Shown here piece by piece: positions 1-20,569 of a stretch of 20,569 nt of DNA (positions are counted from its first letter, which is position 1; each line of letters opens with the position of its first letter). The stretch covers positions 248,001-268,569 of the forward strand of contig QPGO01000121.1 in assembly GCA_008632985.1 (NCBI GenBank). Direction: 5' to 3'. Position numbers and translations under genes: made by a program. Source of the stretch: Psammoneis japonica (taxonomy: Eukaryota). A model generated the notes under the pieces. The model saw nothing but the letters and a program-made list of their open reading frames with translations. It was not told the DNA's origin and did no database searches.

Positions 1-825
1 CGTTTGTTCCACGACGTTTGCTGCGACGTCTGCGCGTTTCGCAGACACTTCTTTAATCTTGAACCACCCGGTTGCTGGGTCAATCATTGTGACTGCCCAC
101 AATTGCAAGGTGTCCTTTCCGCGTCTTTGAATTTTACATGGCCCTGTCACATCTGTGCATGGAGTCTCCCATGGAATTATCTCTGCGACCTTTTCTGGCA
201 ACTTCCCATGATGCTGCGTTCGGCGTTTTGTCTTCTGGCATCGATCGCACTTGGCGCACGTAGAATGCACCGTAGACCTCACACTGGGCCAACAGAAGTG
301 CTGGGCAATGGATGTTTCCGCACGTGTCTCACCTGGATGACACAGTGTCTCGTGGCACCATTCAGTCAGCGGAACCTGTGGTGCTGCGATTTTGTCCTTG
401 TGACAGATTAACTGTCGTGATGACCCTCCCCCATGATGCGCACGAATGGAGCAGTCAGACGAGTCCTTGGCTCTTGAGAGCAGGCGCTTGTCCTTTTGTT
501 GTGCTTTTTGAATGCGCTTGAAGGTGCTGAATGAGCCTGCCACCGCGGTCCAGTTTGTCTCAGCCGTTGAATGGCTTCGCAGACGTTTGCAGCATCGACT
601 GTCAAGCAGAGCACTGCTGGCGCCACCATCTGGCAGTGCCTCAATGGTTTGAGTCTTGCCCTTGCCATGTTTGGCATTCACAGCTGCAAACAAGATTGGA
701 GTGAGATGAGTCTTTTTAACTCGTTTGCGGGATTGGCCTGCAACACGTGTACGATGGTAATCCAGTTGTTCATTTGTACATTCATCTGATGTGCCAAAAC
801 TGCCTGTGTCGTGTCGGCCCCCTTC
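1..825 (-). pseudogene. pol: Gypsy pol remnant: N-half of aspartic protease fused in frame to integrase (HHCC zinc finger and start of core)
   Basis: Manual translation of minus 825->1 has no stop: IEALPDGGASSALL (cf. ALLDSGAS), WTAVAGSFST|FKRIQKAQQKD, then WCHETLCHPGETR...QHFCW...CAKCDRCQKTK...HGKLPEKVAEIIPWETPCTDVTGPC...TMIDPATGWFKI. Not in the ORF track. Confidence 0.88.
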
Positions 826-1902
826 TCAGGCGTCCGAATCTTCGGAATCACTTGAGTTGAGGTCGCGGAAGTGATTGAGCTCCTCCTCGCGGGCCTTGCG
901 CTTTTTCTGAGCGTTGGCAAAGAACTCCTTGACCTTCGATCCGACAAGAGCATCAATGTCTTCCTCATTCCGAGGTTTTGCATCAGGCTTGCCGCCTCTG
1001 TCATTGGAATGTCCAGTCTTGACACGTTTCACGTGGTGCTTGAGCTGACGGCAATCCTCCGTATGATGTCCACAGTTGATCCTGCGCAGCATGCACGACT
1101 TCTGGGTGTTCCGTTGGGTCGTGATCAACGACTCAGGATTGTCCGTTCTACGTCCCCGCTTACATGGAACCTTGGCATGTTGGTCCTGGTTGCCTTCGGC
1201 AAGCTCGACCTGCTCGATGCGCTCGCAGAACTGCACAAATTCGGCGACAGTGTGCGCCAACGGGTCAAAATTCTGTAGCGTCATGAACTTCTGCCATGCG
1301 TTCGGCACACCGCACTCGAACATGTCGCACAGTTCGTCATTGGGCAATGGTGCCGGTGTTTCTCCATCCTCCGTCACGGGTGGAAACTGAGAGATGTGGC
1401 CGTTAATTTCAACAGCCCTCGCGACGTAGTCACGAGCAGAAACCTCTGCGGGCTTGCGCATGAAGCGCCGCAGATGACGCTTCTGCAACAGTGCCGCCCT
1501 GTGTGGGAAGATACTTTCCTTTAGCTTCGCGATGCATGCTGCGCACGTGGCGTTGGTTTGGCATGCCTGCTTGTCAGCGGCATTGTCAAATGACGTCAGA
1601 GCATCGCCCTGTGGCAGGTCATGCACAAGGGCAAATTTTGCTGGCCCGGTCGTGATGTTTTGTCCTTCATGCGCGCGATCCACGTTGTGCAGAAAGATTG
1701 GGAGTGTCTCGCATGTAGCCGCAGAAAGGTGCGGGATGCCCATCTCGTGCGTTGGACTGTCCGGATCAGCGGGGTTGTCACGCAGCTTGAACGTCTGGCA
1801 CTCGCCCTGCTGCAGCTCTTTCTTCTCTGGCCGTGCGAACGGAATCGGCGGCTCAACCCGCTTCTTCATGGTCATTTTAAGACTGTTCGGTCCTGCCAAC
1901 AT
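826..1902 (-). CDS. gag: Gypsy Gag (hypermutated; 1 Tyr in 358 aa)
   Basis: Motifs PPIPF.RPE, FKLR..P, GQN.T.GP, GDAL..F, FP.RA..QKR..RR..RKP, VP..WQ, FCER.E, as I recall them from diatom gypsy Gag; degenerate Cys/His knuckle (CMLRRINCGHHTEDC); lies directly upstream of and in frame with the protease. Confidence 0.8.
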   Translation of the reverse strand: MLAGPNSLKMTMKKRVEPPIPFARPEKKELQQGECQTFKLRDNPADPDSPTHEMGIPHLSAATCETLPIFLHNVDRAHEGQNITTGPAKFALVHDLPQGDALTSFDNAADKQACQTNATCAACIAKLKESIFPHRAALLQKRHLRRFMRKPAEVSARDYVARAVEINGHISQFPPVTEDGETPAPLPNDELCDMFECGVPNAWQKFMTLQNFDPLAHTVAEFVQFCERIEQVELAEGNQDQHAKVPCKRGRRTDNPESLITTQRNTQKSCMLRRINCGHHTEDCRQLKHHVKRVKTGHSNDRGGKPDAKPRNEEDIDALVGSKVKEFFANAQKKRKAREEELNHFRDLNSSDSEDSDA

Positions 1903-2000
1903 TTCGTAGTTTCGTTTCTGTAGATTTCGTCACCTCGCACAACATGCGGGAGCAATGTCACTGTGCCCTGCGCATGCACCAGGCGCTGAAAAAGAAGATG

Positions 2001-2237: not shown

Positions 2238-4423
2238 CGGATGCTCTCTTGGCATCCTTCTGGAATTGCCCAAGACCCAGAGCCATGCCCTCCTGTGGTC
2301 GTGCTTCCCAGGCACGTGTTAACAACACCACGTTGCCACGTACAAGAGGCTTGTGCATGGTCTTGCCATGTTGTCCAGCAGCGAGGCATGCTGCACTGAG
2401 GCAGAGAGAGGTGCATGCCTGCACACTGTCCTGAAGAGATTGCATTGTCAGCATCTCTGTGGCATGACCTGTGGACAAAAGGTGCCACTTGATGTGACCA
2501 CAGATGTGGGCCACAGATGAGGATGTTGAACCATGGAGCAAAGAAGTCCTTGAATGTGTGTCCACCACCATGCTGATGTTTTCCACACACAATGATCTGA
2601 ACCCACTGTCATCTGAAATTGAACAGTGCAGTTGGAGGGCACACATGACCAAAGAATGTTGGCAAATTGTTGGGAGCTAAGCCGCAAGTTGAGGCAAGAA
2701 AGAATGTTGTCATTTTGTCAGAGAATGCAACTGTGCCAATGAGCACACAAACAATGAATGAATTGCTGGATCAAGGGGCAATGAATTGCAGTTGGATCCA
2801 GACAGAAACAGAAATGACACCGAGTTGCACAGACTGCCGGTTGTCCCTTGTCCCACCTGTGGTGTGGACAAATTTGGGGTTTGTGGTCCCCTTGTGCAAC
2901 TCAACACCAGTCACTGTCCTGAAGTTAAATTGAGAGATGCAGATGGCATTGTTCACAATGCCACAAAGCTGGCATTGTTCTTCCACCATGTTGCGCCAAC
3001 CACAGGAGCCCTGTGCACAGGTGGTTCTGCCACAGAGTGGAGCTCTTTGATGTGACTCCCAAGACAGTCAACGGCTAGATTGTGGACCTGATTGATGGCC
3101 CACACTCTTGAATTGTAAAAGAGAGAGGATTTGTTGCACTCATGTGAAGTGTTTTGTGGAGTGTGTGCAAGGCACATCACACTTGTTTGATGACATGGTC
3201 AACTTGCTCTGATGATGGACAGCACACCAACTTGTGCAGTTCTAAGTTGAAAGACATCAGCTGCAAAGCAACAGGTGTGCCTTGCAATGACATGGTTGCT
3301 GTGCCAAAGGGATCAGTTTTCCCTCAATGCCAGCCAGCCCCAACTGGCTGGTGGTGGAAGTGGCAGGAGTGGCAGGAGTGCATTGGAGTGTCTGGATTGT
3401 TTGGTGACTCTTTATGAGCAAGAGGCTTCACCATTTTCAATCTCTCACCTTTCAGTTTCATCTTGCTCTTTGGAGTGAATTGTTGTTTGGTTTGCATGAT
3501 TTGTCATTCCACATCAATGGGCAGCTGTTGTCCTGCAAGTTTACAGCTTGTTGCATTGACACCTTCAGCAACCCACAACCATCACAGTTTGCCAAGGCAG
3601 GTGCACCAAGCAGTGCACAAGAAGCCTGATGGAATTCTCTTTTGGTTGCATTGACTTGCCAGCTCAGTGAGCATGTTCCAGCTTGGTTTTGGAAAGTTGC
3701 TCCACACAGCAAAGCATGCTTCATGTGTGCAAAACAATTTTGCTCCATGACAGTTCCCTCTCCACATCATCAAACAGTTTGCCAAAGAGACTCACCTTAA
3801 AAAGCTTTGTCCACTCCAGGTGCATTTCCAGTCCTCCTCACCCATCATGTCAACACAATCCTCCAGCAGCAGCCCATTGATGCCCCCTGCACACCTTTGT
3901 TCATGCAGGATTCTGCCAATGAGAAGAAGAGAATGAAATGTTTCTGCCACAGTGTGTGCCATGCAAGGAGAGTGGCAATCATCCCCAGTGGTGCACGGGC
4001 AGTGGAGCAGGTTTGCAACCTGCCTTGCACATCATTTCATGGAGATTTGCATGAAAGTCTTCACCCCACCACTGAATGTTGGCAAAGTTGCTGTTGCAGA
4101 GTTGCACCACATGTGCCTCTCTGTTGATGCAGTGGAAGGAGGCTGTGCACCCAGAGCTGACCCAGAGCTGAGTGTTTGTGTTTGTGCAGTTGATGGTCAG
4201 GGCTTCTTTGACTTGTGTCTGAGCTGGCTGTGCAAGCAGAGCATCTTGAAGGCACCATGGTGGAGATTCCGGCATGCATCACCAGATGTGCCCAAGGACT
4301 TGCCGTGTCTGTGTGTTGGGGAGACAATCCAATCTGTGGGGCTCAACATGCTTTTGTGCAATGAGTGCACCCACAGACCTTGCAACTGCAGGGCACCAAC
4401 TCTCAGAGGCATCATTTTGGTTG

Positions 4424-4660
4424 GTGTTCAAGAAGAGACTGTTGCAGGGTGTGTGTGGGGCTGCTGGCAAAACAAAGTCTGTCCATCAGTGTGCTTGCCA
4501 GGGTGAAAAATTCTGTGACCTGGACCCATCACATGCCATGGTCAGTGTTCAAGAGAAATGGTTGTGGGGTGCATTGGTGGGGAGCACAGCTGGCCAAACA
4601 AAATCTGTCTGTCAGTGCACTTGCTGGGGTGAAAAACTCTGTGACCTGGACCCACCATCA
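4424..4660. repeat. Diverged tandem duplication, ~121-126 bp unit, 2 copies
   Basis: GTGTTCAAGA at 4424 and 4545; GGGTGAAAAA.TCTGTGACCTGGACCCA at 4501 and 4627. Confidence 0.85.
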
Positions 4661-4916
4661 CGCATTGGCAAAATGTGATGCTGATGCCAATGGCAGTGAA
4701 CGGTTCTTGTGTGCTTCCGTTTTGTGAACTGCAATGTGTCCAAGGACACCTTGTGTCAACAATGCCAGCCATGTCTGCTGTGCAGGCAATGATTGAAGAA
4801 GCTCTTTCCACCAGCAAGGGCAGCAAAGCATCGCACACTTTGAGTGTGATGTGGCTGCTGGCCGGGCTGGGCTGCATGTGTGTGTGACCTGTTTGTTTTT
4901 GTGTGCACTCAGAGCA

Positions 4917-4998
4917 GGAGAAAATGTTGCATGGCAGCGTTGAAGGAACAAGAAGGGGAGAAAATGTTCTTGCATGGCTGCATTGAAGGAACAAGGAG
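4917..4998. repeat. Tandem duplication, ~40 bp unit, 2 copies
   Basis: GGAGAAAATGTT...GCATGGC.GC.TTGAAGGAACAAG at 4917 and 4957. Confidence 0.85.
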
Positions 4999-5849
4999 TG
5001 TTGGTGTGTGCTTCTCAATGTTGCACAATGTGGTGGCTGTGAGAACCCCAAACATGTTTGGGGAAGAACAGGCAGGGTGAAAATGGCCATGCCAGCCTGG
5101 TGTGATGGCACTGCCTTTTCCACCACAAGTGGTCTCATTTCCTGAGTCCATCATGCCTCTGCAAGCTGATCCCTTGTTGGAGCCATCCTTTGTTGCTCAG
5201 CTTGCCAACAACCGGAGGCCTCTGGCAATGAAGCAAGTTTGAAGCTCCTCCCCAGTCAGCACAAGTTGGCAAGTGCTTTCTGCCTCCCAAGGGCACAGCT
5301 GTCCTCACAGAACAACAAGTGGTGTGAGAACATGCCACAATGAATGGAGAGTTGGTCACAAAGCTGCAGGCTTTTTACCCTCTTGCTGTGGAGCAGAGGT
5401 GAGCTGGGTGACTCCTCTGAGAAGTGAGCATGCTTTGTGGCTCACTCTGACATGCAACACCATCACACAACTTGGGGTCTAAGACAGGTTGAGTGAGTTT
5501 GTCCAGAGCAAGGAGAAAGCAACTTTGAGGTTGGACAAGACAGCACTGGGCTTGGGCTGTCATCAGAGTGCCAATGCCTCTTGAAAGAACACTGCAAAGT
5601 GGCCTGCAAAGATCTGCCAGCTTTTGTGAAGCATTGCATGTGAGATGACAGAGATGCAGACAACTGCTCATCACTTTTTTGAGTGGATGAGATTGGGTGA
5701 CTTAGAAGTGTGAGAGGGAGTGGCTGTGTTGTGAGTGCCTGACTGCTGAGGCCCAACCTGATTTGCACCACAGCAGGGCCACCAAGCCTCATCCATGCGT
5801 GGGTTCACAGTGGTGCTGCTCTGTGTTTTGGCACTTTGCTCAGACTTCA

Positions 5850-6330
5850 TTCTCCCACACTTTCTCGCCAGAAAACTCAGCTCCCATGCCACTCTGGCTG
5901 TCATGAACACTGCCTGCTGATTGAACATCCAACAATCATTCTTGTGTTGGGGTGTGTGATCTGCAATTGCTTGCACATTTGTTGAATGCAGTCCCCTCTG
6001 ATTGACAAGTGGTGTGTTGGGGTTCTTGTGCTCACAGGAAGTTGCCCTGGAGCATGAGTTCACATGGCACAGCCATCTGCAGCTGCCACACAACCCAGGT
6101 GCATCTCAGGAAAATTGTTTTTGTTTTTCAAAAATTGATTTGCCAGAGATTGCAGCCCCACCTTGGTTGTTGTTGGAAAGTGTGCAGTGCTGACATCAAC
6201 TTCAGTGATGGCTTTGAAACAAGCAAGTGAAGTTCCTTCTAACATGCACAAGTCAAGGATGGATCTCCATGCTGTGGTCTGATGAAAGTGGCTTGCATTT
6301 CCCACACTTCACCATGTTGTTTGACCTGCC
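5850..6330 (-). pseudogene. PIF/Harbinger (DDE_Tnp_4-like) transposase relic, frameshifted
   Basis: Correctly ordered motifs across frames: GCVAAADG (6095-6072; cf. GCVGAIDG), NP...NQRGLHSTNVQAIAD (6003-5959; cf. NRKGxYSxNVQAxCD), GSVHDS (5914-5897). Boundaries approximate. Confidence 0.65.
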
Positions 6331-7369
6331 TTGGAGGAGCACCCCCTGGCACACTTGTGTGTTCATCAAGCCCTTCTCAGGGCTGTTGTGCCAACACAAG
6401 AGGCTGCACATTTGAAGCTTCAAATGCCACCAGTTGGCCTGTGCCCTGTTGCCAGGTTGAAAAAACTGCCAATTTTTCACTGGGGCCAGGCTTCTCATGG
6501 GGAGACAAGCCACAACTTTCTGACAAGTGGCACATTTGACTGGCTGCAAACATGTCTGCAGTCAACAAGGTAAAAGTTGTGCATGGCCACAACCATTGTC
6601 CATGTGCTTTGTCATGTCTTTGGAGCAGACAAAGTTCAACCTGTCACCAAAATTTCATTTTTGGTGAACACACCCACCCAGTGCAATGAATCCAAATCCA
6701 GGTCATTTTTGGAAGCACACAGATCCATCTTTAAAGCATGACCAAGCCCAAGAGCAAAAATGAGTCCATGCAAAGGACAGCCTCCAGCCCCCTTGCAGCC
6801 AAGTTTGACCTTTTCATTGACTGCCAGCAGCTTGTGGTTGCTTTCTTGCTGCTGTCAACCTTCTTCCACTGGTTGTGTCAAGCAGGTCACAAAGAATGCA
6901 TCTTGCATGATGCCACTCACAGGAGGAGCACACAGCCAGCTGCTCACATCACTTCTTCTTTGGTCTCACTGCCACCAAGGTGTCAAGAGCAAAAGACACT
7001 CTGTTGTGGATGCCATTGCAACAAATGCAAAACAGTTGCCACTTTTGCATTGACAAGTGGCAAGCATTTGTTGCAGCACATGCACACAATCATCACTTTG
7101 TGGAGATTGGGTGCCCACCTTGTGACATTTGACAATGCAAAATGACCCTCACTGACCATTGGGTCACTCTTCTCTTCAGCCATTGAAAAATTTGAATGCG
7201 CTCATGCAAGATTGGCGCAATGGTCATTTGCTCTTCACCTCATGCTCTTTCTCATTCTTCCAAAGAGCAACCAAGAGCAACAGCCACAAGCAGACAGATT
7301 TTAATGCTGTCATTTTGGTGCAGAATGCCATCTGCCATTCTTGTTTGTTCACAGGAGGAGCCATGCCAC

Positions 7370-9505
7370 ATGAATGCTGCACAACATGGAGCCACCCCAG
7401 TGGCACAAGGGGGTCAGAATGCCCCAAACACAAATGCAGTGGCACCACAGCCACAGGCGTCAGTGCAGCAACCAGCTGCAGCTGTGGGGAATGCACTGCC
7501 ACCACTGCAAGTCCCTGTGCCTCCCCACAGCCCAGGGACACAATTTGCAGGACCAGGCCAACCACTGCCACCACTGCCAGGAGGCATCCCAGTGGTGCTT
7601 CTAGCACTGCCAGTGCTGTGGAACCCTCAGAACCATTTTTTGTCAGATGCCAAAGACCCACACCATGGTGACTGCACCAAAGCCATCCTGGATTTTGCCA
7701 TGCCCATGCAAGGAGCATCACGGCACAACCCAGGTGCGCTGCATGACAGGGTTGCATTGGCCTCAAGTCATGACCTCCCAATGACAATCACACTTCATTG
7801 TCATGCCAATGGCACCACCAACAAGGGGCAAATGCAGGCATTGCATCAAGTCTCAACTGGCCCCACTGCTGTGGTGGGACAAGCTTAACCATGGGACAAT
7901 GGCACATGTGCTGTCATGGGCGATCTGACATGCAGCCAATTCACACTCATGGAGTTTGGGGAAGATTTGTGTGCTCCAACCAATCAAGGGACTTGGGTTC
8001 TGACACACAACATGCTCCAAGCAGACATTGCAGCCACACAGAACAGCCTCCATGCATCTGCATGTGCAAGCTGATGCACAGGACTCTGAAGAGGTTCAGA
8101 CATGCAATGTGATGTTCGCGCCTTTCGAGTTTGTCTGCCTGTTCCTGCCTGCACCCCTTGGTCCAAAGGACATGCATGCAAGGGTCCATGGAGCAGCCAC
8201 AGCTGCCAACAAGCTTGCTGCACTGACGCCGCTTCTAGACTGCCTGCGGGTTGAGTGTTGCACCATGCAGAATGCACAGCTCCAGTTGGCAGCAGCACAG
8301 CCTTGGCCAACCATGACGCACCCTCCTGATGATGCACTGATCCATTTCTTTGATTGCAAGGTGGAACGAAACACCTGCCAGGCTGCAGGGGGGGATGCAG
8401 ATCCAACCACAGCAGTTCCAGCCCACAATTGTTGCCATCAAGGGACTCACAATGGAGCAGTGACAGCAGCAGTTGGATGAGGAAGCAAGGTGCATGGCCA
8501 CCCCATGAAGCAAGAGGCCAGCAGAGTTCTGGAGAGTCTTTTGGGTTGCAAAGATCCTGCGTTGGTGCCAGATGCACAACAAGGCTGCACCACCTTCACT
8601 GTGGTCCAGAATGCCATCAATGAGCAGCATCAAGCCCTTCAGGTGCATTTTGACCTGCCAGCAATGGCGAGTCTCGTCACCAAGTTGGCGCAACTTGATT
8701 TTGCAGGGTGCAACCAGGAGGAGCCCACCCAAGGCATCAACCCTTTCTTGTTCAGACTCACTGCCCCACACACAGCTGAGCAAATTGCCTGCCACAACTC
8801 AATGCATGTGCAGTTCCATGGAGAAGCAGGAGGAGTGCCACAGCCACAAGATGTGCAGGCACTCAAGGCACCAGACAAGGCACTGGTGGCAACAACTGTG
8901 CAGGCAGCTGTGCAATCACATGATGGATGCCACCTCATCTGCTCCACCACTCTGGGTGAAAACCACCCTGTTGTGCAATGGCTCACTCTGCAGCATGCAA
9001 ACATGGACAGGCATGCCAACAAGCTGGTGCACTGGCAAACACTTCATCCGACCCCACCTGTTGACTTCCAGCAACATGCACAGGTCAAGCTGCATCATTG
9101 GTTCCTGTCACAAGCAACAGTGCACCAGGAGATCCCATTCATGGGGCACAACATCATTCACAAGGCAGCTGAGGGGGCAATGTTTTGGCACCTCAGCTTG
9201 CTGCCTGCCATGCTTCCCACCAGTGCAGTCGGTGTGACTTCACCAGAAGCTGCCAAGTTGGACATGGCGGGCACCACAGTGTCATTTGGAGCCCGTCTTG
9301 TGACCCGCACTTTGCAACACCATGCAATTGTGCCAACAGGCGCTCACATGAGGTAAAATTGCATTGCACCCAGGACAAGATCGAGCTGCCCAAAGACAAC
9401 CAAGGATGCATCCACTGCAACCCTTGCCACATCAAAGGGCAGTGCAACTCCAACTGCAGCTCCAGCTGTGATCACCACAATGACCTCACCAATGAAGAGC
9501 AGTGA
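7370..9505 (+). pseudogene. Probable DIRS/Ngaro-type (tyrosine-recombinase retrotransposon) ORF1/Gag-like relic with stops and frameshifts
   Basis: Consecutive plus-strand ORF pieces (7196-7888, 8028-8480, 8490-9356, 9185-9505) read as one protein: P/A/Q-rich N-terminus, DPHHGDC, PWD..GD, NVMFAPFEFVCL, LLDCLRV, GINPF, and a C-terminal Cys/His finger CNPCHIKGQCNSNC...DH. Family call is from recollection of diatom elements; no RT or YR domain is visible. Confidence 0.45.
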
Positions 9506-9992
9506 CAATTCCTTGCACAGGGCAAGAAACGCTGGAAGACTGAATGGGTCTTTTGGCAATGGCATGAGTTCGGGGGCCAGTTGCCAAGAGCCATCGTGTG
9601 TGTCGGCGGCACACTCACAACACCAAGAAATTGTGGAGAGTTTCAAAAGGCAGCACAACCACCACACTGCACATGGACAGGATGTTGCTGTTGCAATTTA
9701 CAATGACAAATTAGACAAGCACATTAAAGCCAACACAGCATCATTGCGTCATAAAGGACTCAGCCACTGAGGAGATTGGAGACCACCGAATCACATCTGG
9801 GGTGACGGAAGTGTGTGGTTGGGAGTGACAGGTGGCAGGAAAGTGGCGTGCAGTGTGCTGGGCAGTGAAGAGAAAAGGATTGGCCGATGGTGCAGACAGA
9901 TGGATTTGTGGAAGATGCACTGGTGATGGTCAGGTGTTGGGGCATGTCAGAAAATGAAGATGACTGGGTGGAAGAAAACAATGACTCCTCAC

Positions 9993-10189
9993 TGCTGTCT
10001 AAATGGCAGATGAGTCTCCATGCAGAGACCGTTGCAGGAGCCGAAAGACTGGTGTCGTGATGTCGGCACTGCTGTTGTCATTCTTGTGAGCTCTGTGGCT
10101 CGAAAGCAAACTGCATCGCGTGACGTGCACGGAACTGAGAGCACACATGATTGTGTGCGATGAACCAAAATCTTGTTCAAATCCTGTCA
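9993..10189 (-). repeat. Putative 3' LTR of the copia element (~197 bp)
   Basis: On the minus strand it begins TGACAGG immediately after the purine run GGGGAG and ends ...AGACAGCA at ~9993 (9996 is an alternative end). Confidence 0.6.
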
Positions 10190-12144
10190 CTCCCCAGTTT
10201 GCTTGAGGGGTCAACAGCAATGGATTCGAAGTCAGATTGGTTGAAAGCCTCGGGGTCGAAGTTCCAAAACATTAAAGGATAAAGGAGGTTCCAGACTTGG
10301 GAGCAACCCCAATGCTTGCTGAGGATGTCAGCCGGGTTGCGGGAACCTTCGACAAAGTGAAACTCGAGGAATCCGGAGGCAATCGCCTCACGCACACGAT
10401 GGAACGAGAGGGCAGTGTGTTGCTTGTGTAACTTGGAGTGCGGGATGATGGCACTGTCCACAACCGACTTGTTGTCCCCAAACATGTGACATGTTTCACG
10501 AATGGGAACGCCAAGGCAATGTAAAGTGATGCGCAGATCAATGATCTGATCGACACATGTCCTTGCGGCAACAAACTTGGATCCATGCATGGCAGTCTCG
10601 ACTGTTGCTTGTTTCTTAGAGAACCAATCAGCCGGAAACTTGTTGAGGAAATGGAGGATGCCAGTGACAGAGCGTCCAGTGAGCATGCAATGGAACAAGC
10701 TCGCATCGACACAGTGCGTGGTGGTGACGAACTTGCCATGTGGCTCGGGTGCATCTTGCGGGAGCAGCTCTTCTACCTCCCCATGTGCAGATTGAGCCCA
10801 ATCGCACACGGGCTTGGGAAGGTCCGAACAGTCGGGCTCCTCGGTGTGCACTCGAAGGGCGCCATGACGCATCTTGGAGAGGAATCCGCAGATGCGTTTG
10901 GCACGGTCCAGGTGGCCTTGATGGGGCGCTGCATGGAAGCTGGACAGGGACATGACAGCTGCAGCAATGTCAATGCGGCCCAGAGACACGGCCCATTGCA
11001 GGGATCCAATCAAGGACTGGAGCTGGTGGATGCCATCCGGTTTGAGCAATTCTGAGGTGTCGAGTTCAGGGTGGTCACCCTTGTCAAGGGGTGAAAGCAC
11101 ATCAGTGCAGGGCTTCTCCCCAAAGAGGCATGTGCAGTTGTCAACCATGCGCTCAATGTGCTTGCGGGGAGCAAGGCACAGGGTGCCGTCTGGGTCACGG
11201 GTGAAGTCGCAGCCAAGATGGAACTCCAATGGTCCAGTGCCCTTGAGCTTGAACTTGCACTTCTCCATGAGGGTGTCTGCAAAAACCTGGGGGTCCTTCA
11301 TGGCGAAGGCCAGGTCATCCACATGCACTGCCACGCATTCGCAGAGGTCACCATTCCTGCGCAGCCAGATGTCAGGTTCGGCCTTGCATGGGAAGAAGCC
11401 TTCGGCACGCAAGCAATTGGCAAAGCATTCATGCCATCTGAGACCGGAGCTGCGGAGTCTGTACAAGGCCTTGTGGATGACGAGGATGTGTCCTTCCAGG
11501 TCGCCAAACTCGGGGCCTGCTGCGATGCACAGTTTCTCCTTGGTCGCAGCTTCAAGGCAGGCATTCCCAATGTCAGTGGCCCAGGTCTCTAGTTCATTGA
11601 GTTTGGCCAGGAAGATCATCATTCGCAGGCCACGGAGGGACACCACTCCGGAATGGACACTGTCGACGGGCACGTCTGTGAGGTGTCCATCGGCGACAAG
11701 CCTTGCTTTGTGCCGTCCGTCATGTTTGATGTCGCAGACGAGATGTGCCCGGATCTTCTTGTGTCCTGATGGAGCACTGGAGTCCTTGTGGTGTCCGCAG
11801 TCGTGAAAGACCTCGCACTCATCAAGTTGGGTCATCTCGAGGTCCGTTGCGTCTCCCCACTTGCGGTTGCCATTGCACTCATCAAGGGCCATGGCATGCT
11901 TGTAGTCCCGTGGTGCTTCATGCCCGCACTTGTGTCGTGGCGCAGCATGAAAGGAGCGTAACTTGGCTTGGTTGGCCATGCGGAACAGCTTCTTCTGACG
12001 AAGTGCCATCTTGCAAAAACATCTCCATCCTTCGGTTTCTAGAAGGCCGTGCTCACGCGCGTAGATGGCACAGGTGATGGGGTCATCCTTGGCAATGATG
12101 GCAAGGGGTTCGGACGTGATCTCCCCACTCTCCCATTCAAGCAT
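10177..12144 (-). pseudogene. pol: Copia reverse transcriptase + RNase H (open frame, RT motif altered to HVDD)
   Basis: 655 aa: KARLVADG, TDIGNACLEA, KALYRLRSSG, VHVDDL, LEFHLG, SLIGSLQW...R.DI, CVDAS...RSVTG, W.SKKQ.TVETA.HGS.FVA, GDNKSV, H.VRE, NPADILSK. Only 4 Tyr. Confidence 0.93.
10190..10195 (-). other. Polypurine tract core (GGGGAG) of the copia element
   Basis: Minus strand AAACTGGGGAG|TGACA at the end of pol, the usual copia PPT/LTR junction. Confidence 0.6.
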
Positions 12145-13150
12145 GACGTTGTAGCTTGAGCCTTTCCAAGAGGGATCATGGGGTCACAATGGTCCTTCGT
12201 GAGATGCGATGTGTCGGAACTTCCAGAGAGTTGAGTCCTCGTCTTCTTGCTCAATGTGGTGCATGATGTCATTGCAGGCCAGGACTTCCTTGCATTCATC
12301 ATTGTTGATGGAGCAAATGAACTTGACCAGTTCAGGATTGCCTCTGATTTTCCAGTCGTGGTCCTCAACGGCTTTGACGATGCGGGCTCTGTGGCGTTGT
12401 CCATCCTCTTGTGGCTTCATGAGGAAGGTGCGTCCCACGACATCCTCGGGGTCAAAGACTGGCATTTTGGGCATCCTGATCGCCTCCCCATCTGGTGAAT
12501 CTGGCAAATTCTCGGAGTCGTGACGGGATTTAATGACAGGGTCAGCAGATTCCTTGTCAGGAGGATCAAGACGCAGGTTTGGAGCAGACGGATCACGGGC
12601 GGAGCGCACGTTGGAACAGCAGAGAATCTTCTGAGTGTCGTCAGAAAGAATCTCAAACGTCATTTGGTGACCAACATGTTTGGCGATGCCAATGAAGCGA
12701 CCACACAATTCACGGGATTCGGGCAGCCAGTCGGAATCATCCAGGTGGCAGAGCACACAGGTTCCCACCATTGAAAGCGGAGGAGCGGGCTGATGTCGGG
12801 AGCAGAGCCGGACAGCACCTCGGTGGGGGCATGCCAGTGGAGCTTGGCGGACGCCGTGTGGTTGAGCACAAAACACACGCACATCAGGGTGAGCAGCCAG
12901 GTGTGAGCCGGGGACCCAAAGCGATCCATGATGGTGTTGGCCATGGTCTTCACAGTTTTGTGGCGGTGTTCAGCAAAATTCTGATGCTGGTGATGGGGCT
13001 CGCTTTGCCAACCAGAGATGAAGAGGGCACGAAGGATGCCAAGAACCTTGTTGCTGATCTCAACCTGAGCACGGTCGCTGATGAGCTTGGACGGGGCACC
13101 GCGATTGCAAATGTTGTCTTTGAGGGTGTTGACAAATTCTTTGTCAGTTT
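12145..13150 (-). pseudogene. pol: Copia integrase core and IN-RT linker, with one frameshift (~12752) and one in-frame TGA (12186-12184)
   Basis: KTDKEFVNTLKDNICNRGAPSKLISDRAQVEISNKV...WQSEPHHQHQNFAEHRHKTVK...PDISPLLRFQWWEPV / HLDD...GRFIGIAKHVGH.MTF...HEGPL*PHDPSWKGSSYNV, continuing in frame into the 655 aa ORF. Confidence 0.9.
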
Positions 13151-13229
13151 TTTTAATTCTGCGATTGCTTGTGCTGAATGTGCCTGCATGTTTTTAGTGC
13201 CACGCTCTCCGCAGAACTGCCGACACACC

Positions 13230-15083
13230 ATGGCGTCTCGTTCCGTCGCTGATGGTGGCCATGCCCCCAACGACAACAATGACATCAACATGGCGGACGA
13301 CATCACTGTTGATCACGCATCCAACAAACCTTCTTCTAAACCGAAAGAGCCTCCCCATGTGGAGATCACCCCACGCTTTGACATTCGTGGCCCGGAGGCG
13401 ACGTGCAAGCCGATGACCCTCACCACCGCTCATCTTCAAGTTTTGCAACAAATCCCATTCACGTGTCACAACGATGTTCAGATCCTGGACAACCACAACA
13501 ACCAGATCACCAATGTCAACATTGCAGAATGGATTGCAACCCTTCAGCACGAACGTCACTTCACGATTTCTGCGACTCGCAGTGGAGAAAAACGCCCTGT
13601 CGTCCACCGCCTGTGCCACCGCATTTTAACCGAAGTCCCCCTTCGAGAGATCCGTTCTCATCCTCATGTTCAGAGCATTTTAGACTCAAACAACATGGGT
13701 TTGAAGCGCCACTGCTGGAATGAGTCAGTGATCGACACGGCGACTCCGGCATGTTACGTCGCTGCCCCATCCAAGCACACTCCAATCGACGAAGCCACCA
13801 AGTTGTTTGCAAAAGATCCAGGCGAATTCAAGTCCAAGATGCCGAAATTTCGTCTCGCACCTACCTCCATTCGTGCCGATAACGATCAATTGGCTCCTCC
13901 CCTTCGCACCGTCACTTGTGCCATCGAAGTGCAACAAGACGATTGCCGCACTGCAGGAAAAACCTTGCTGTGCGCCTCCAACAAGCTGCCGACACACATT
14001 GTCACGGCGAAGACACGGTGCATGTCGCCACTCGCCTTCTATAACACCGTCAAACTCCAAGCTCGTCGCAATCATGATGCTTGCGTGGTTCTGCTGTTGT
14101 GCACCTCCCCGGATGTGATGTTTTATTTGGAAAACCACATCAGGGCCATCTCCGGAGTGAAAGAGATCTGCAAGTCTAGCACCACCCCTGGTCGGTGCAA
14201 TGTGTTGGTCAAACGTACGGATTTCAAAGCTTCCCGTGCTGGTGTCTCTACATGCATCATGGATCAAATTCCAAATGTCCCCAAAGAATCTTGGCCGTCT
14301 CCTCCATTTCCCGATCAACCTCACGTGTCTGGTGTGCTTGACGAGCAGTCCGACACCAGCAAATCCATGGTGTCTGCGAGCATCTGCAGTTTGGAGTCCC
14401 CAACCTTCTCAGATGCATCTCCATTGACGGACACCCAGGCCTCGAGGTCAAACCGTCCTCCTCCTCCGGCACAGTTCACGGGCAGAGGCCATGGTCGTGG
14501 CAGCACCCCTGGTCGAGGCCACTCTCCAAGCCCGTCAGTCCCTCCGCAAATCTTCGCCCCCAGGCCCTCCTTCCAGGCAACTCCTTGCGGACATTCTGGA
14601 CACCCAGGAATCTTGTCCCCTCCGCATTCGTACGCTCAAGCGACTCAGTCGTCTACAAGTTCTTCCCTTGCGTCAGCACAGATGGCGGAAGTACAACAGA
14701 CCCCACCACAAATGCAACAGAAGAACGATGCGGCTCTAGCAGATCTCCGCCGACAGCATTCTCAGGACATGGAAGCTTTGCACAACACCTTTGCCAAACA
14801 ACACTCCCAGGACATGGCCACCATGCAATTTCAGCATTCCCAACAGTTGGCTGCAGTGCAGGAACAAATGAACCAAATTGTTCAACCACTTCAAGCAAAC
14901 CAACCCATTCAGAGTTCAGCCAGAAAACGCCCCAACAACATGGAAACTCCTGAATGCCCTGGCGACCACAAAGAACGGGAGACGGATTTTTGGGCAGGGG
15001 TTGGACTTCGCTGCCTCCACCCCCTCAAGAAATTGGGCGACCTCCTGACATTGTTTCCTCGCCCCACTCACCACTTGCGCTAA
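13230..15083 (+). CDS. LINE ORF1 protein (~617 aa from ATG 13230)
   Basis: 3' part of track ORF 12771-15083; globular N-half, P/S-rich region with GRG repeats, Q-rich coiled coil with three QHSQ repeats (~14750-14850); sits upstream of ORF2. The ancestral stop may have been earlier (e.g. TGG at 14991 from TAG; inference). Confidence 0.7.
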   Translation: MASRSVADGGHAPNDNNDINMADDITVDHASNKPSSKPKEPPHVEITPRFDIRGPEATCKPMTLTTAHLQVLQQIPFTCHNDVQILDNHNNQITNVNIAEWIATLQHERHFTISATRSGEKRPVVHRLCHRILTEVPLREIRSHPHVQSILDSNNMGLKRHCWNESVIDTATPACYVAAPSKHTPIDEATKLFAKDPGEFKSKMPKFRLAPTSIRADNDQLAPPLRTVTCAIEVQQDDCRTAGKTLLCASNKLPTHIVTAKTRCMSPLAFYNTVKLQARRNHDACVVLLLCTSPDVMFYLENHIRAISGVKEICKSSTTPGRCNVLVKRTDFKASRAGVSTCIMDQIPNVPKESWPSPPFPDQPHVSGVLDEQSDTSKSMVSASICSLESPTFSDASPLTDTQASRSNRPPPPAQFTGRGHGRGSTPGRGHSPSPSVPPQIFAPRPSFQATPCGHSGHPGILSPPHSYAQATQSSTSSSLASAQMAEVQQTPPQMQQKNDAALADLRRQHSQDMEALHNTFAKQHSQDMATMQFQHSQQLAAVQEQMNQIVQPLQANQPIQSSARKRPNNMETPECPGDHKERETDFWAGVGLRCLHPLKKLGDLLTLFPRPTHHLR

Positions 15084-15195
15084 CATCAATTTTCCGTCGG
15101 ACTTCACGACACCGGAGTTTTTCCTTCCAAACCAACACCAAGTTGATGCAGTGCTCTAAGCCTCAGTCTTCTCTTCGGAGGAGCATGGCCCAACA

Positions 15196-18100
15196 ATGAG
15201 TCGTTCGCCTTCCACTGAAGATCCAGCTCTTGCTTGGCAGAACATCCTAGATGGACGCAGTTGCCACCCTCCCACAGATCGTCGGATAGATTTTTCTCGA
15301 CTAAAGACCAACGCACCTGTGGGCGACGAACTCCGGCCCAAGCTTTCTCACCACACGCACCTTTATGCCTTCAATGCCAACAGTTGTAAATTCGACAAGC
15401 GTGGCGGTGACATGAACGAGTGCTGTCAACTCGCCTCCGAAATTCAAGCCGATGTCATTGGCATCTCGGAGGTGTGCCTCGACACCACCCAATTTGACAT
15501 TTTATCCATGTGTAGATCTGCCATTTCCAAGTCTTTACATCATGGGCGGTCCACCTTTTCAAGCAGTTCCACCACCTTTGCAACGCAATGCAAACCGGGT
15601 GGAACGGCCTTGTTGTCATGTGGCTCGATTTCTGCTCGCTTCCGGACTCAAGAATCCGACCCGCTCGGCAGGTGGTCAATTCAAGTCTTCGATGGCAGGA
15701 ATGGACGCCAAGTTATGTTTGTCTCTTGCTGTCGAGTTTGCGCTAAGAACCAACAACACCCAGGGAAGACAACGGCGTGCGCTCAACAATTGGCCCTCCT
15801 CCGGCAATTGGGGCGCCGGTCACTCGATCCCAGGAAGGCGTTTTGTGCAGACTTGTCCCGAGTCTTGCAGGATTTTCTGGTGGATTCCAATCGAGAAGTC
15901 ATTGTTTTTGGGGACTTTAACACTGATTTCACCTGTGACACTGACTCTTTGGCTGCCGTTGCCCAGCGCTTCAATTTGTCTGACGTCCTGTTTAACATCA
16001 TGGGCGACACTGAGTTCTCCACATGTGCCAGAGGTTCCCGGCGTCTTGACTACGTGCTGGCCTCTCCTGGCGCTCTTGCTGCAGCTCGCTTCGGTGGACA
16101 TGAAGCCTTTGGATGTCGAGTCACTTCTGATCATCGTGCTTGCTTCGTGGACTTTGACACTGCAGCTCTTTTCGGCAACCCGACTGTCAATTTACCCAAG
16201 GCATCCTTCAGGGACATTCAGGCTACGTCTGAACCACAGCTCACCTCTTGTCTACAGGCAGTCGGCCCAATGATTCAGAGTCGTTCGGCATTGCAACACT
16301 CTTTCCAGCTGCTGGAACTTGACGCTCCAGATCATGCTCTGGCTGAACGGTTGGACCGTGATCTCCTACAGTTCTCTCTTTCCGCTGCCAAGAAATGCCG
16401 AATTCATCGCGAACCCGACTGGTCGGTTGAACTTTCAGACCTGAGGTGCCGGGTGCACATCTTTTCCCGCCTCGCATCCATGATGAGGACAAAATTGGAC
16501 TGCGCATCACAGATTCGAGCAATGCGAGACAAACTGAGTGGATCCTTCACCATCCCCGACACTTTGCAAGGTTGTCAAGAGGCGCTGCGCGCTGCTCAAG
16601 ACGATTGCAAGCAACCAGCGGCTGACAGTGTCGTGCGCTGCGAAAGGGAAGTTTCCGAGAGGACAGCCGCACTCGATCTGGAAGGCACTGAGGAGTCACG
16701 TAAACAGGCAACTGTCTTGTGCAACATCCGCAAGGCAGAAGAGATGAAAAAGCTGTTCAGGAAGATTGACTCATGCCACACTCAGAGGGACACAGGCATT
16801 CAGAGCGTCCAAGTTCCCAGCAATCCTTCCATTCCTCCCAAAGAATGTCAAGATTGGATCGCTGTTGATGCTCCGGAAGAGGCAGCCACTGCTCTCCGTC
16901 AACGCAGTCAAAAACACTTCGGTCAGGCACAAGGCACCCCTCCAACGGCACCTCCGTTGTCCATGGACCTGGGCCATGAAGGTGACACTGTCATGGTGGA
17001 TCTTGTTCTTGATGGTGAGCATGACACGTCGGCTTTGAACAAAGCAACTGCCCTTTTCATCAACCACTTGCGTCGCCATTCCCCAGTCTCTGCACCGAAT
17101 CTTCCATCTGCATCAGATCTCGAAGGAAAAATAAAACGTTGGAAAGAATCCACCTCCACGTCCATTTGCTCCGGCCTCCACCCAGGTCATTGGAAAGCAA
17201 TGTATGCTCCTCATCGGTTCTCAGATGCAACTGATTCCGAAGGCAATCCCACCCCTGAACGTGAGGCCCTCGATGAAGTTCAACAATCCCTCACTCAAAT
17301 CAGGTTGAATCTGCTTAACTGTGCCCTTCGTTGGGGATGCTCCTTTCACCGCTGGCAAGACACTGTCAACGTGATGATCTTTAAAGAGCCAGGCAACAAC
17401 AAGATGCATCGTCTCCGTGTCATCCATGTCTGCGAAGCTGACTTTCAATTAATCTTGAGCATCAAGTGGCGCGCTCTGGCCCAAAACATGGAACACCGCC
17501 GATTGTGCAACTCGGGGATCTGCGGCACTCGCGCCTTCTTAAATGCCAACACTCCTGTGTGCCTTGAAGAACTCATGCTCGAGATTGGCCGTGCCTCCCG
17601 AAAATCCGCCATTCACAGCGATGATGATTGCACATCGTGTTGCGATCGGAATGTTCCCGCTCTGGTTGCAGTTGAGAGCCACAGCAATGGCGTGCCCAAA
17701 GAAGTCACTCAAGTCGCTGACGCTGCCATTCACAAGGCTCGCTGCTGGTTGCGAACGGTGCTGGGCCTGTCACTAACTTCTTGTTCTCACTCTGATGACT
17801 TCCCCATTTGTGGAACAGGACAGGGCAGCGGAAACTCTCCGTTTTGCTGGAACCAAATTTGCAACAGTCTGTTCCAGATCTTCAATCAACGGGCACATGG
17901 TGCATTTTTCGAGTCCCCAGATCACTCCCTCTCGCTGCAGATGTTCAATGGAGGATGTGTCGACGACACGTCCAAGCAGGTGAACGATTTTTGTTCGAGT
18001 CCTCAACCTTGTGTCCTCGATTTGGCTTTCAAGATGCAGGAAGATAATCAACTGTGGTGCGACCTTTTGAACGCGGCTGGCCACGAGTTAGAATTACCCA

Positions 18101-20569
18101 AATGCTCCTTCCACGCTGTCGAATGGATGTTTGCAGAGGACGGCGAACCTTACCTTTGACCCTGCAACGAGGACATTGACATTGAAATCTCTTCTGCAGA
18201 CCGCACCACGACTGGGTCAAGCAAACAATTGTCCGCATGCTCTTCTCACAAGACACTTGGACACTGCAAAGCTCCAGCGGGGACTCAAAAGACCCAGCAC
18301 TCGGCTCTGAAACAAAAGAGTGACGGCATTGCCCTGTTCCTTCGGTCTTGTCCTTTAGATCGACACGAGTCATGGACTCACCATTTTGCTTGTCATCTGT
18401 CTGCAACCACGTGTGTTCTCCCGAACACTCACTTCAAGGAGAAAGAGTTGCTCGAAGTACAGAGGAAGGCCATGCATGCCATTTTTGCCAAATGCGGACA
18501 CAATCGGAACTCGAAACGTGACGTCCTCTTCGGACCTCATTCCCTGGGAGGCGGAGGTTTCAGGTCTTTAGACGTGGAACAGGGTGCAGCGCAGGTTCTG
18601 CAGTTTCTCATCCACTGGCGGGGCTTTGGGCAACCTCAGGTGTTGTCGCGAATCGCTGTGTCGTGGATTCAGTTGCAGCTTGGCACAGGTGTGAGTTTTC
18701 TTCAGGACGTCCATGCCAAGCTCCCTCGTTCCGAATCGAAATGGTTCATGTCCTTGCGTTCATTCTTGGCCCGGATCGATGCCACCATCGATTGTGATCA
18801 CACTGGAGTGCTTCCACTCCAGCGAGACAACGACCAATGCATCATGGACGTTGTGCTTCAATCCCAGGCGTTCAGTGATCGTGAGATGCGGTGGGTCAAC
18901 TGCTGTCGTCTTCATCCAAATGTTTTGACTCTGTCGGATGTTGCCTCTCCGGATGGTTTTTCGCTCGATCCCTTTAAAGTGAACGGCCGATCGTTCCTTC
19001 TCAGCAGTCGCAGCACTCTGAATCCTGTCGAACAACAACGTCCATCCGCTTGGGCATGGAAACAGTGGCGTCGAGCCTGTTCCTTGTTTTGCAAACCAGA
19101 CTCGCTCGATCTACGACACCCTTCAGGTCAACGGGTTGTGCCAGCTACGGAAATGCGCATGACACATGTCGCATGTTACGAATCCTCCGAGGATTGCTTG
19201 TGCATTCGTGGAGATTCGGGTTTCGAGATTTTCCCAGTGCACCAAGGTTGTGCGGAGACTCTCACCGCTCTGGAAAACGTTCCAGATCTTTCCCCAGCCG
19301 CTTCCCCTGTGCCAGCAGATGCGACTACAACCGGTTTGTGGCGGATCAAGTCACTCGGTTCTCCAGCATCCTTGCCAACAGTCCCTCCCGTCCCGAATGA
19401 TTTCTTGGCCATGCTGCGGTCTCTTCCTCGGTGGGAATCTGCTCTGTTCGAAAAATTGCATTTACATTGGTCCACATTTGAAATCGCTGAGCTCCTCGTC
19501 ACCCACAAGGTTTCAGCAGCTAGCGACGGTTCGGTCCTCCATTTCAAAGGTGCATTCGGGTGGACGATTGCGATCGACGGGGTTCCTCTTGTGGATTGTG
19601 CCGGTCCAGTTTTCGGTTTTCGCCCATCGTCTTGTCATGCGGAGGCACACGGTCCACTGTCTTTTCTCCGTTTTCTGATCCGATTGTCAGACTGTTGTTC
19701 TACACAGGTCAGCGGCGCCGATTTGCATTGCGACAATTCCGCTCTCATTCGCACCATCTCGAATTTCCAGGTGATTCCTCATCCTGCCGACGAGGAGGAG
19801 ATCCAAGGAGACTTCCACTGGCGTTTTCACATTGCTGGCACTCTCTCTCCGGATTGGGACATTGTCAATGAGGTCTTCCATTCCCCAAGACAGCTGTCAG
19901 AAGCACGCACTGATGAACTGTCGTGTCCTGCAGTCGAGATTCACTGGGTGAAGGGACACCAAGACGACATTCTTCCCATTGACTCTCTCTCTCAAGCGGC
20001 AAAGTTGAACACACGTGCCGACAGACTCGCTGGACAATTCCAAGGTCGATTTACGGGCGATGCTCTTGCTGCTCCCCGCATGCCTCATTGCCGAGCAAAC
20101 CTGCTTCTTCAAGGAGCCACTGTTTCTTCCAAATGCAAGCCGGTCATCAGATGTCAGGCATCGAGTCCCGCACTGGTTCAGTGCATGAAAGAGAAACACA
20201 GTTGGTCCGACGAAGTGTGTGCATCGATTGATTGGGACGTTCATTCGAAATTGATGTCACAAAACATTCGTCGAAAAGTCAGTGCCGTCAAGCTGGTTCA
20301 AGATCTTCTGCCCACCAACAAGATTGTACACAGATGCAATCCGACACATCCGGACTGTTGCACTCACTGTCAGGACCCCATGGAAGACAGAGATCACATT
20401 CTCCGTTGCCCTCATGATGAAGCCTGGCGCAGAAAATTTTTACAAGGATTGCGCAAGAAGTGCGATGATGTTCACACGTCTCCTTCCTTACGAGACTTGA
20501 CAATTTCGGCTGTTGAAGCATGGTTTCGAGGCGAGCTTTTGCACTCGGAACAATTTCATCACAGCGTCG
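15196..20569 (+). pseudogene. LINE ORF2: AP endonuclease, reverse transcriptase, RNase H, CCHC knuckle; one in-frame TGA at 18157-18159
   Basis: APE: FNAN, DVIGISE, PGGT, DPLGRWS, GDFN, RLDYVL, SDHR. RT: KEPG...LRVIH..EAD, DCTSCCDR, GTGQGSGNSP, GCVDDT, LELPKC. The same frame continues after the TGA with no stop to the window end (manual translation): KTLG, FGP.SLGG, ASDGSV, GAFGW, AEAHG, CDNSAL, DWD, HWVKGHQD, LNTRAD, C.HC....EDRDHILRC. Confidence 0.92.

What the first reader, a model, noticed from the sequence alone, without database searches (positions are those of the whole stretch)
2400..10003. Surviving TpA sites reveal the mutator's specificity: YTAR and TTTA/TAAA are spared, implying a TAY target
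Of ~24 surviving TAs in the most decayed zone, 16 are YTAR (CTAA, TTAA, CTAG, TTAG; about a quarter expected). The other 8 all lie in TTTA or TAAA (e.g. TGTAAA ~3115, TTTACC ~5375, GGTAAA ~6571 and ~9354). None is RTAY. YTAR is the only class lacking a 5'-TAY-3' on either strand, so the preferred target appears to be TAY, disfavoured after a T-run. Established: bacterial TadA deaminates the A in a UAC anticodon-loop context, and TadA-derived base editors prefer TA. Involvement of a related deaminase is inference only.
Basis: partly seen in the sequence, partly recalled or inferred. Interest (0 to 1): 0.78.

Follow-up and report, generated by a model that had tools for sequence, protein, structure and literature searches.

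The report
Flanking code of diatom TpA hypermutation
In this diatom, transposon DNA has had most TA steps rewritten to TG or CA after insertion, and the few TAs left follow a six-base neighbour rule that fingerprints a still unknown DNA-editing process, so far reported, without this rule, in one unrelated alga.

Summary
Counts confirmed: 24 TAs in 2400-10003; 16 YTAR, 8 in TTTA/TAAA, 0 RTAY. The window lies in a diatom genome whose repeats have lost TpA by TA>TG or TA>CA. From 20 repeat copies (772 ancestral TA sites) I measured the rule. Read as A>G: +1 pyrimidine about 3x faster, -1 A about 2x, -2 purine and +2 non-A 2-3x; hexamer rates span about 50-fold (AATATT fastest, TTTAAA slowest). 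Fitted on other DNA, it puts 23 of the 24 survivors in the slowest quarter. So TAY is the preferred target, but YTAR is slowed, not spared (about half lost), and the 'T-run' effect is mostly a -2 effect. Changes are almost pure transitions, hit both strands, show no strand-coordinated tracts, and the +/-2 rule is nearly palindromic. This suggests single events on duplex chromosomal DNA, not TadA-like bursts on single strands. TpA is palindromic, so A>G in TAY equals T>C in RTA; no enzyme is identified. TpA hypermutation is described in Bigelowiella natans (2026 preprint) without any flanking analysis. This scan noted the TAY/YTAR pattern many times before on other DNA of this genome.

The parts
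2400..10003 (.). Old, nearly saturated hypermutated block: 24 TA left (o/e 0.05), CG o/e 0.11; mostly single-copy depth in an independent run
2678..10001 (.). The 24 surviving TpA steps (T at 2678, 2926, 3076, 3116, 3243, 3413, 3542, 3798, 5376, 5480, 5703, 6240, 6571, 6732, 7302, 7602, 7886, 8236, 9354, 9699, 9712, 9725, 9752, 10000); 23 lie in the slowest quarter of 256 hexamers
6253..6676 (+). Fragment of a dispersed repeat with dozens of 73-81% relatives in the genome; also found at the end of family-F locus L122
7113..9768 (+). Decayed copy of an unclassified multi-copy element, 65-75% alike to families E, F, G (one family-G ORF has only a weak RVT_1 match, E 0.019); holds a Tyr-free 291-aa frame at 8481-9356
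1..1929 (-). Younger LTR-retrotransposon-like coding block (integrase zinc-binding domain), TA o/e 0.22, CG o/e 0.95
10180..12183 (-). Copia-type reverse transcriptase frame; at 25 columns where at least 70% of 120 homologs have Tyr, this copy has Cys 10, His 8, Tyr 4, other 3
13154..20569 (+). Young LINE (endonuclease + RT), one of 7 copies 94-96% alike that differ almost only by transitions; TA o/e 0.15, CG o/e 0.83; one source of the rate model

Best explanation
The survivors are the slowest-mutating ancestral TpA steps left by a host process that converts T:A to C:G at TpA in repeat DNA after insertion. SHOWN: it acts on each copy independently and on both strands, gives TG or CA and practically never a transversion, is about 16x faster per site than CpG decay, spares host genes, and follows a hexamer rule. 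On the strand read as A>G: -2 A>G>C>T (3.2:2.6:1.8:1), -1 A>C=G>T (2.1:1.4:1.4:1), TA, +1 C=T>G>A (3.3:3.0:1.3:1), +2 C=T>G>A (2.4:2.4:1.7:1). The +/-2 terms are close to palindromic; the +/-1 terms are directional. INFERRED: single, independent hits on duplex (or briefly opened) chromosomal DNA in silenced chromatin, the outer positions setting access to the TpA step and the inner ones which strand is hit. MOST LIKELY CHEMISTRY (inferred): a host adenine deaminase turns the A of TpA into hypoxanthine, which pairs with C and is fixed as G at replication. The enzyme is not identified, and its rule matches neither native TadA nor ADAR.
For: LINE family A pairs differ by transitions almost only, e.g. 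335 vs 3 transversions in 7412 bases. At TA-type sites: 2523 transition outcomes vs 7 other states, 0 of these in the two LINE families. Mean per-strand rate TA 0.73 vs CG 0.045. Genes TA o/e about 0.45-0.7, repeats 0-0.2. The rule reproduces between LINE and F/G families (Spearman 0.94 over 256 hexamers), predicts 23 of 24 window survivors (control 23%) and genome-sample survivors 221/48/34/8 by rate quartile against a flat control. No same-strand clustering in 9 distance bins (z -1.6 to 1.3); sense/antisense term 1.01. Symmetry of +/-2 p 0.02-0.06 vs +/-1 p 1e-26 or less. The same 3'-Y rule appears at about 1% strength on non-TpA adenines: 62 of 11632 vs 12 of 15939, p 2.5e-13. De novo TpA>TpG/CpA was seen in B. 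natans lines, with A-deamination proposed (10.64898/2026.01.13.699255). No MPG/AAG glycosylase match in G000 while 4 of 14 controls rang, which would help hypoxanthine persist.
Against: TpA is palindromic, so nothing here tells an A lesion from a T lesion. No unusual deaminase turned up: PF00383/PF14437 give dCMP-deaminase-, TadA-, ADAT2-, RibD-like and two other small deaminases; the second ADAR-fold gene is widespread in diatoms. Endonuclease V is present. Strict +/-2 symmetry is weakly rejected in the LINEs (p 0.016). Independent hits could also come from brief single-strand exposure over many generations. The model predicts 11-13 YTAR, 1.4-1.9 RTAY and about 4 TTTA/TAAA among the 24, so the window is cleaner than the model. 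Chromatin state and methylation were not measured; nearness to CpG has little effect (0.87x within 10 bases).
Confidence: 0.52

Rival explanations
1. Thymine route: the T of TpA (preferred 5'-RTA) carries a modification such as 5-hydroxymethyl- or 5-formyluracil, an epigenetic mark of repeats that mispairs with G and leaks T>C mutations, as 5mC leaks C>T.
For: Formally identical signature. Slow, site-independent, pure-transition behaviour parallels CpG decay in the same copies. 5hmU is enriched over repeats in a dinoflagellate, and older work reported a TA/TC preference (PMC11071213, passages).
Against: No Tet_JBP match in G000, but no control rang, so this is weak. The same paper found no sequence motif for 5hmU in B. 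minutum. Here T>C at TC is the rarest secondary context (GAY 11 of 4231 vs AAY 32 of 3655).
Confidence: 0.25
2. One reading: a TadA/ADAT2-type deaminase edits single-stranded DNA in an anticodon-loop-like TAC context.
For: TA >> other NA and +1 C fit the UACG / TA preference of TadA and derived editors (10.1101/2025.07.11.664364, passages). TadA-like and ADAT2-like genes are present. The B. natans preprint proposes ADAT2.
Against: TACG is 0.45x the multiplicative expectation and TAT is as fast as TAC. No strand-coordinated tracts. Only weak stem effects (1.1-1.3x). Near-palindromic +/-2 rule. TadA/ADAT2 are universal housekeeping enzymes, while relatives of these elements elsewhere are not depleted.
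Confidence: 0.15
3. Error-prone polymerase (Pol eta-like WA>WG) filling repair patches started at methyl-CpG mismatches.
For: Secondary order TA >> AA > CA > GA resembles the WA motif (motif recalled; counts). CpG decay co-occurs in the same elements.
Against: 0 transversions among 1724 TA outcomes in LINEs, whereas Pol eta also makes A>T and A>C (recalled); no same-strand tracts and no TA-CG coupling at short range; TA/AA ratio near 100-fold; CpG density has no effect. AA vs CA is not significant (p 0.067).
Confidence: 0.06
4. Survivors are new TAs made from CA/TG by C>T, so their context reflects creation, not escape.
For: New TAs do occur: 2 in-frame TAA in 9685 LINE family A codons read, one from a CAA column; fitted rate 0.0015.
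Against: Equilibrium predicts about 2.5 of the 24. Context-dependent loss is seen directly in copy alignments.
Confidence: 0.03
5. Assembly or base-calling artefact at modified bases.
For: Would also give site-independent, two-way, transition-only differences.
Against: A separately assembled contig of run X1 matches 2905-6320 with 14 differences in 3416 bases, and five further contigs match most of 6447-9857. X1 may be the source sample and its library type is not on record. Depth of loss differs between elements of one window. De novo events exist in B. natans.
Confidence: 0.01

Closest known systems
TpA hypermutation of integrated NCLDV/virophage DNA in Bigelowiella natans (Mettrop et al., bioRxiv 10.64898/2026.01.13.699255)
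   Same: A>G/T>C only at TpA giving TpG or CpA; confined to foreign or silent DNA; TpA-depleted sequences enriched for RT and DDE domains; enzyme unknown.
   Different: Here a diatom (stramenopile) and far more extensive: 176 of 400 sampled 500-base windows have TA o/e under 0.15, whereas the preprint reports 124 clusters and o/e 0.45 in its main region. Here dispersed retroelements are hit and CpG decay goes with it. The main text has no flanking analysis (0 hits for trinucleotide, flanking, context, diatom, thymine). They saw de novo events; I infer from copies.
Fungal repeat-induced point mutation (RIP) (recalled)
   Same: Repeat-confined, post-insertion, transition-only, dinucleotide-specific mutation that destroys coding capacity.
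   Different: Opposite polarity: RIP makes TpA from CpA, this erases TpA; the target is a T:A pair; no link to a sexual stage or to pairing was tested.
TadA / ADAT2-3 and TadA-derived adenine base editors
   Same: A>G with strong 5' T preference; +1 C favoured.
   Different: Native substrate is a UACG tRNA loop and editors prefer single strands; here TACG is relatively slow, TAT equals TAC, +/-2 is near-palindromic and hits are not strand-clustered.
ADAR-fold adenosine deaminases
   Same: Act on duplexes; 5' order U/A > C > G (PMC11120146) resembles T >> A > C > G here; two ADAR-fold genes exist in G000.
   Different: ADAR's hot spot is UAG (PMC10661471), while TAG is slow here (1.3 vs 3.3 for TAC); known substrates are RNA or RNA/DNA hybrids.
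5mC deamination at CpG (established knowledge)
   Same: Palindromic dinucleotide decaying to TG or CA site by site in repeats; seen in the same copies.
   Different: TpA loss is about 16x faster and has a much stronger flanking rule.

Membership tests
B. natans-type TpA hypermutation | Changes at A:T pairs are A>G/T>C transitions at TpA | tested here: met
   2523 TG/CA outcomes vs 7 others at TA-type sites; non-TpA A>G about 1% of the TA rate
B. natans-type TpA hypermutation | Confined to foreign/repeat DNA, host genes spared | tested here: met
   bimodal TA o/e; host-like ORFs 0.43-0.73 with normal Tyr, Tyr-poor ORFs 0-0.26
B. natans-type TpA hypermutation | Ongoing de novo activity, variable among lines | not testable with these tools
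   needs mutation-accumulation lines; copy doses vary 0.9-2.9x
B. natans-type TpA hypermutation | Same flanking rule / same enzyme | not testable with these tools
Fungal RIP | C>T at CpA, creating TpA | tested here: not met
   TpA is destroyed; new TA rate 0.0015 per copy-site
Fungal RIP | Repeat-confined transitions after insertion | tested here: met
   near-equal pairwise distances among LINE copies, both directions in every copy
Fungal RIP | Homology pairing, premeiotic timing, RID/DIM-2 dependence | not testable with these tools
   27 C5-methylase matches exist but say nothing on this
TadA/ADAT2-type DNA editing | 5' T preference | tested here: met
TadA/ADAT2-type DNA editing | UACG/TACG optimum in a hairpin loop | tested here: not met
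   TACG term 0.45x (methylation of that C may confound); stem terms 1.1-1.3x
TadA/ADAT2-type DNA editing | Single-strand substrate giving same-strand clusters | tested here: inconclusive
   no clusters, but rare single hits over many generations would also leave none
TadA/ADAT2-type DNA editing | Lesion is on adenine | not testable with these tools
   TpA is palindromic
RNA/cDNA editing during retrotransposition (ADAR/APOBEC-like) | One direction relative to the element's sense strand | tested here: not met
   strand term 1.01; TG and CA in all 20 copies
Pol eta WA mutagenesis | Transversions at A:T and same-strand patches (recalled) | tested here: not met
TET/JBP thymine oxidation (5hmU) | TET/JBP gene in the genome | tested here: inconclusive
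   no PF12851 match, control silent

The most novel reading that the evidence does not exclude
Diatoms of this lineage have a natural, chromatin-guided editor of double-stranded DNA (an adenine deaminase, or a thymine-marking enzyme whose mark is mutagenic) that reads an RNTAYN-like duplex hexamer and erases TpA from transposons genome-wide: an A:T-directed counterpart of RIP, perhaps shared with Rhizaria as an old SAR genome defence.
Probability: 0.35. Interest if true: 0.9.

Novelty: new variant of a known kind. Interest (0 to 1): 0.62.

Why it matters
A second, unrelated lineage with TpA-specific hypermutation, here covering a large share of the genome, makes this look like a general eukaryotic defence rather than an oddity. 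The hexamer rate table turns the open question, which enzyme, into a direct test: any candidate must reproduce a 50-fold order from AATATT to TTTAAA, and the published B. natans mutations can be scored against it at once. A natural adenine editor of duplex DNA would be valuable for base editing, where present adenine editors derive from engineered RNA enzymes (established knowledge). In practice it also warns that transposon ages, Tyr/Cys/His content and domain annotation in such genomes are distorted.

Tried and rejected
Enzyme hunt in G000: Tet_JBP, DddA-like and MT-A70 gave no match but their controls were silent, so no conclusion; an MT-A70 blank in a eukaryote suggests limited sensitivity. 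The second ADAR-fold gene (C79) is found across centric and pennate diatoms, so it is not diagnostic. The deaminase-2OG-dioxygenase fusion gave only weak Atlas look-alikes (0.78) to metabolic dioxygenases. A T-run-specific term, hairpin stems, local GC and CpG density add little. Positions -3/+3 have small effects (0.7-1.2x). No RNA holder was listed for the LINE. Run X2 held next to nothing of the window. Rows dropped: LINE family C (transversion-rich, not star-like), families D and E (3 copies each, used only), the pair L055/L058 and unclustered loci such as L037/L038; only 772 of 5939 TA/TG/CA/CG column pairs entered the context fit. Loss of mismatch repair in heterochromatin (recalled to favour A>G at NAC in bacteria) was considered and set aside: it does not explain a 100-fold 5' T requirement, and family A copies show 0-4 gaps per 6 kb. 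The search for Pol eta papers was not completed, so that comparison rests on recall. Literature searches finding no diatom TpA report; the library lacks most subscription papers.
Full report
Observation. The zone 2400-10003 holds exactly 24 TA steps: 16 YTAR, 4 RTAR, 4 YTAY, no RTAY; the 8 non-YTAR all lie in TTTA or TAAA. TA o/e is 0.052 and CG o/e 0.107. Using the flanks of the 1857 TG/CA steps in the zone as control, 16 of 24 YTAR has p=7e-7 and absence of RTAY p=9e-4.

Setting. The window is G000:C121:248001-268569 of a 91-Mb eukaryotic assembly. A host gene from another contig has its named relatives in diatoms (Cylindrotheca, Fistulifera, Seminavis, Nitzschia). The window is a nest of mobile elements: an integrase-bearing block at 1-1929, the old zone, a copia RT frame at 10180-12183 and a LINE from 13154. 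Twenty arbitrarily chosen 10-kb stretches are bimodal: host genes have TA o/e about 0.45-0.7, other DNA 0-0.2; 176 of 400 500-base windows are under 0.15. The loss is real change: where at least 70% of 120 homologs have Tyr (25 columns), the window's copia has Cys 10, His 8, Tyr 4, other 3; the homologs have 2.5-6.0% Tyr against 0.7% here. Three related LINEs from metagenomes have TA o/e 0.57-0.77. These outside sets lean towards intact elements, so they do not show that other diatoms lack the process. A contig of run X1 matches 2905-6320 with 14 differences in 3416 bases, which argues against a base-calling artefact, though X1 may be the source sample.

The mutation itself. Seven LINE copies 94-96% alike differ almost only by transitions, for example 335 vs 3 transversions. 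At TA-type columns in four families there are 2523 TG or CA outcomes and 7 other states, none of the 7 in the LINEs. A mixture model over 5939 column pairs in 20 copies gives a mean per-strand rate of 0.73 for TA against 0.045 for CG, and 0.0015 per copy-site for new TA from TG/CA. All 20 copies carry both TG and CA outcomes and the sense/antisense term is 1.01, so this happens in chromosomal DNA after insertion, not on RNA or cDNA.

The rule. On 772 ascertained TA sites, with the likelihood corrected for unseen sites, the strand read as A>G gives: -2 A 3.2, G 2.6, C 1.8, T 1; -1 A 2.1, C 1.4, G 1.4, T 1; +1 C 3.3, T 3.0, G 1.3, A 1; +2 C 2.4, T 2.4, G 1.7, A 1 (30 bootstraps put the +1 C term at 2.8-3.9). 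Summed over both strands, hexamers span 0.11 (TTTAAA) to 5.2 (AATATT). Direction follows as predicted: YTAY copy-sites 642 TG vs 370 CA, RTAR 111 vs 186, RTAY 448 vs 433, YTAR 176 vs 187. LINE and F/G fits agree (Spearman 0.94). The fit uses no DNA from the zone, yet 23 of its 24 survivors fall in the slowest quarter of hexamers (control 23%), and survivors in the genome sample fall 221/48/34/8 by quarter against flat controls.

YTAR is slowed, not spared: 381 of 744 copy-sites kept, RTAY 85 of 966. The T-run effect is visible (107 of 213 kept vs 110 of 579) but the TT term drops to 1.1-1.2 once position -2 is fitted; a TAAA term (0.43) remains. 'All other survivors in TTTA/TAAA' is a small-sample extreme: 44 of 142 in the genome sample, and the model expects about 4 of 11-13 in the zone, with 11-13 YTAR and 1.4-1.9 RTAY.

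Clues to mechanism. The +/-2 terms are close to palindromic (p 0.02 for all sites, 0.06 for invariant flanks; 0.016 in LINEs, 0.56 in F/G), while +/-1 symmetry is rejected at p 1e-26 or less in the pooled data. Neighbouring TA sites in one copy do not share direction in any of 9 distance bins from 2 to 3200 bases (z -1.6 to 1.3). Kept/mutated status is mildly clustered (z up to 6.3, 1-2 percentage points), partly through copy dose. Non-TpA adenines show the same 3'-Y rule at about 1% strength: AAY 32 of 3655, CAY 19 of 3746, GAY 11 of 4231, against 12 of 15939 before a purine (AAY vs CAY p 0.067). I infer single independent hits on duplex DNA in silenced repeats, behaving like a fast second CpG decay. 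Because TpA is palindromic, A>G in TAY and T>C in RTA are the same record. I rank adenine deamination first (about 0.5), thymine modification second (0.25) and Pol eta low, because transversions and tracts are missing (Pol eta properties recalled). The narrow TadA-on-single-strand version (0.15) overlaps the first.

Enzymes. G000 holds dCMP-deaminase-like (two near-identical loci), TadA-like, ADAT2-like (my label, by motif), RibD-like and two further small deaminases, one fused to a 2OG-Fe(II) dioxygenase. It also holds two ADAR-fold genes, one widespread in diatoms, 27 C5-methylase matches and EndoV, but no MPG match (4 of 14 controls rang). Tet_JBP, DddA-like and MT-A70 blanks are uninformative. 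No candidate stands out. Native TadA edits UACG (10.1101/2025.07.11.664364, passages); here TACG is 0.45x the expectation. ADAR has a similar 5' order (PMC11120146, passages) but prefers UAG (PMC10661471, passages), which is slow here.

What is known. Earlier notes of this scan report the same TAY/YTAR pattern on other DNA of this genome and pointed me to Mettrop et al. (10.64898/2026.01.13.699255). I read its abstract, Results and Discussion: de novo A>G/T>C only at TpA in two integrated viral regions of Bigelowiella natans, with ADAT2 proposed. Its main text has no flanking analysis and does not mention diatoms; its supplements were closed and may bear on the flanking rule. PMC11071213 (passages) reports 5hmU over dinoflagellate repeats with no motif. 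PMC11224995 (one table row) added little. Searches found no diatom report.

Verdict. Real and more than chance. It works like an inverse RIP and meets the testable features of B. natans-type TpA hypermutation; it is not RIP, and membership in TadA-type editing is not shown. New here are the lineage, the extent and the hexamer code. New variant of a known kind; interest 0.62.

Noticed in passing
L135:313-1785 (-), G000:C79 near 88.5 kb: 491-aa frame fusing a zinc deaminase (HAE...PCVMC) to a DIOX_N/2OG-Fe(II) dioxygenase. Probably nucleobase salvage, but it joins the two chemistries in question.
   Followed up: partly
L141/L142, G000:C79:344558-345390: Second ADAR-fold (A_deamin) gene beside the ADAT1-like one; the listed relatives show only the A_deamin domain and are conserved across diatoms.
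   Followed up: partly
L154, L155, L156, L160, L163 (G000 C301, C297, C28): Several C5 DNA-methylase copies lie in TpA-erased DNA and have lost their Tyr codons, so duplicated or element-borne methylase genes are themselves targets.
   Followed up: no
window 3626-9608 vs run X1: Of 27 listed differences, 14 toggle a CpG and 2 give a TA in X1, both in slow contexts: CpG decay is still segregating where TpA is nearly exhausted.
   Followed up: partly
copy alignments, TACG sites: TACG mutates at 0.45x the multiplicative expectation; a methylated C at +1 might hinder the mutator.
   Followed up: no
flanks of LINE copies L111-L117: Most 600-base flanks of the young LINE copies have lower TA o/e (0-0.18; one 0.40) than the LINE itself: these LINEs landed in already erased DNA.
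   Followed up: no
window 4418-4657: Two adjacent 120-base direct repeats, 77.5% alike.
   Followed up: no
window 1975-2396: Two pieces match DNA 2-3 kb upstream of the window (L169, 90-95%), likely the end of the neighbouring element.
   Followed up: no
L125:411-2915 (-): Flanking ORF with a weak Crinkler N-terminal domain match, just under the cut-off.
   Followed up: no
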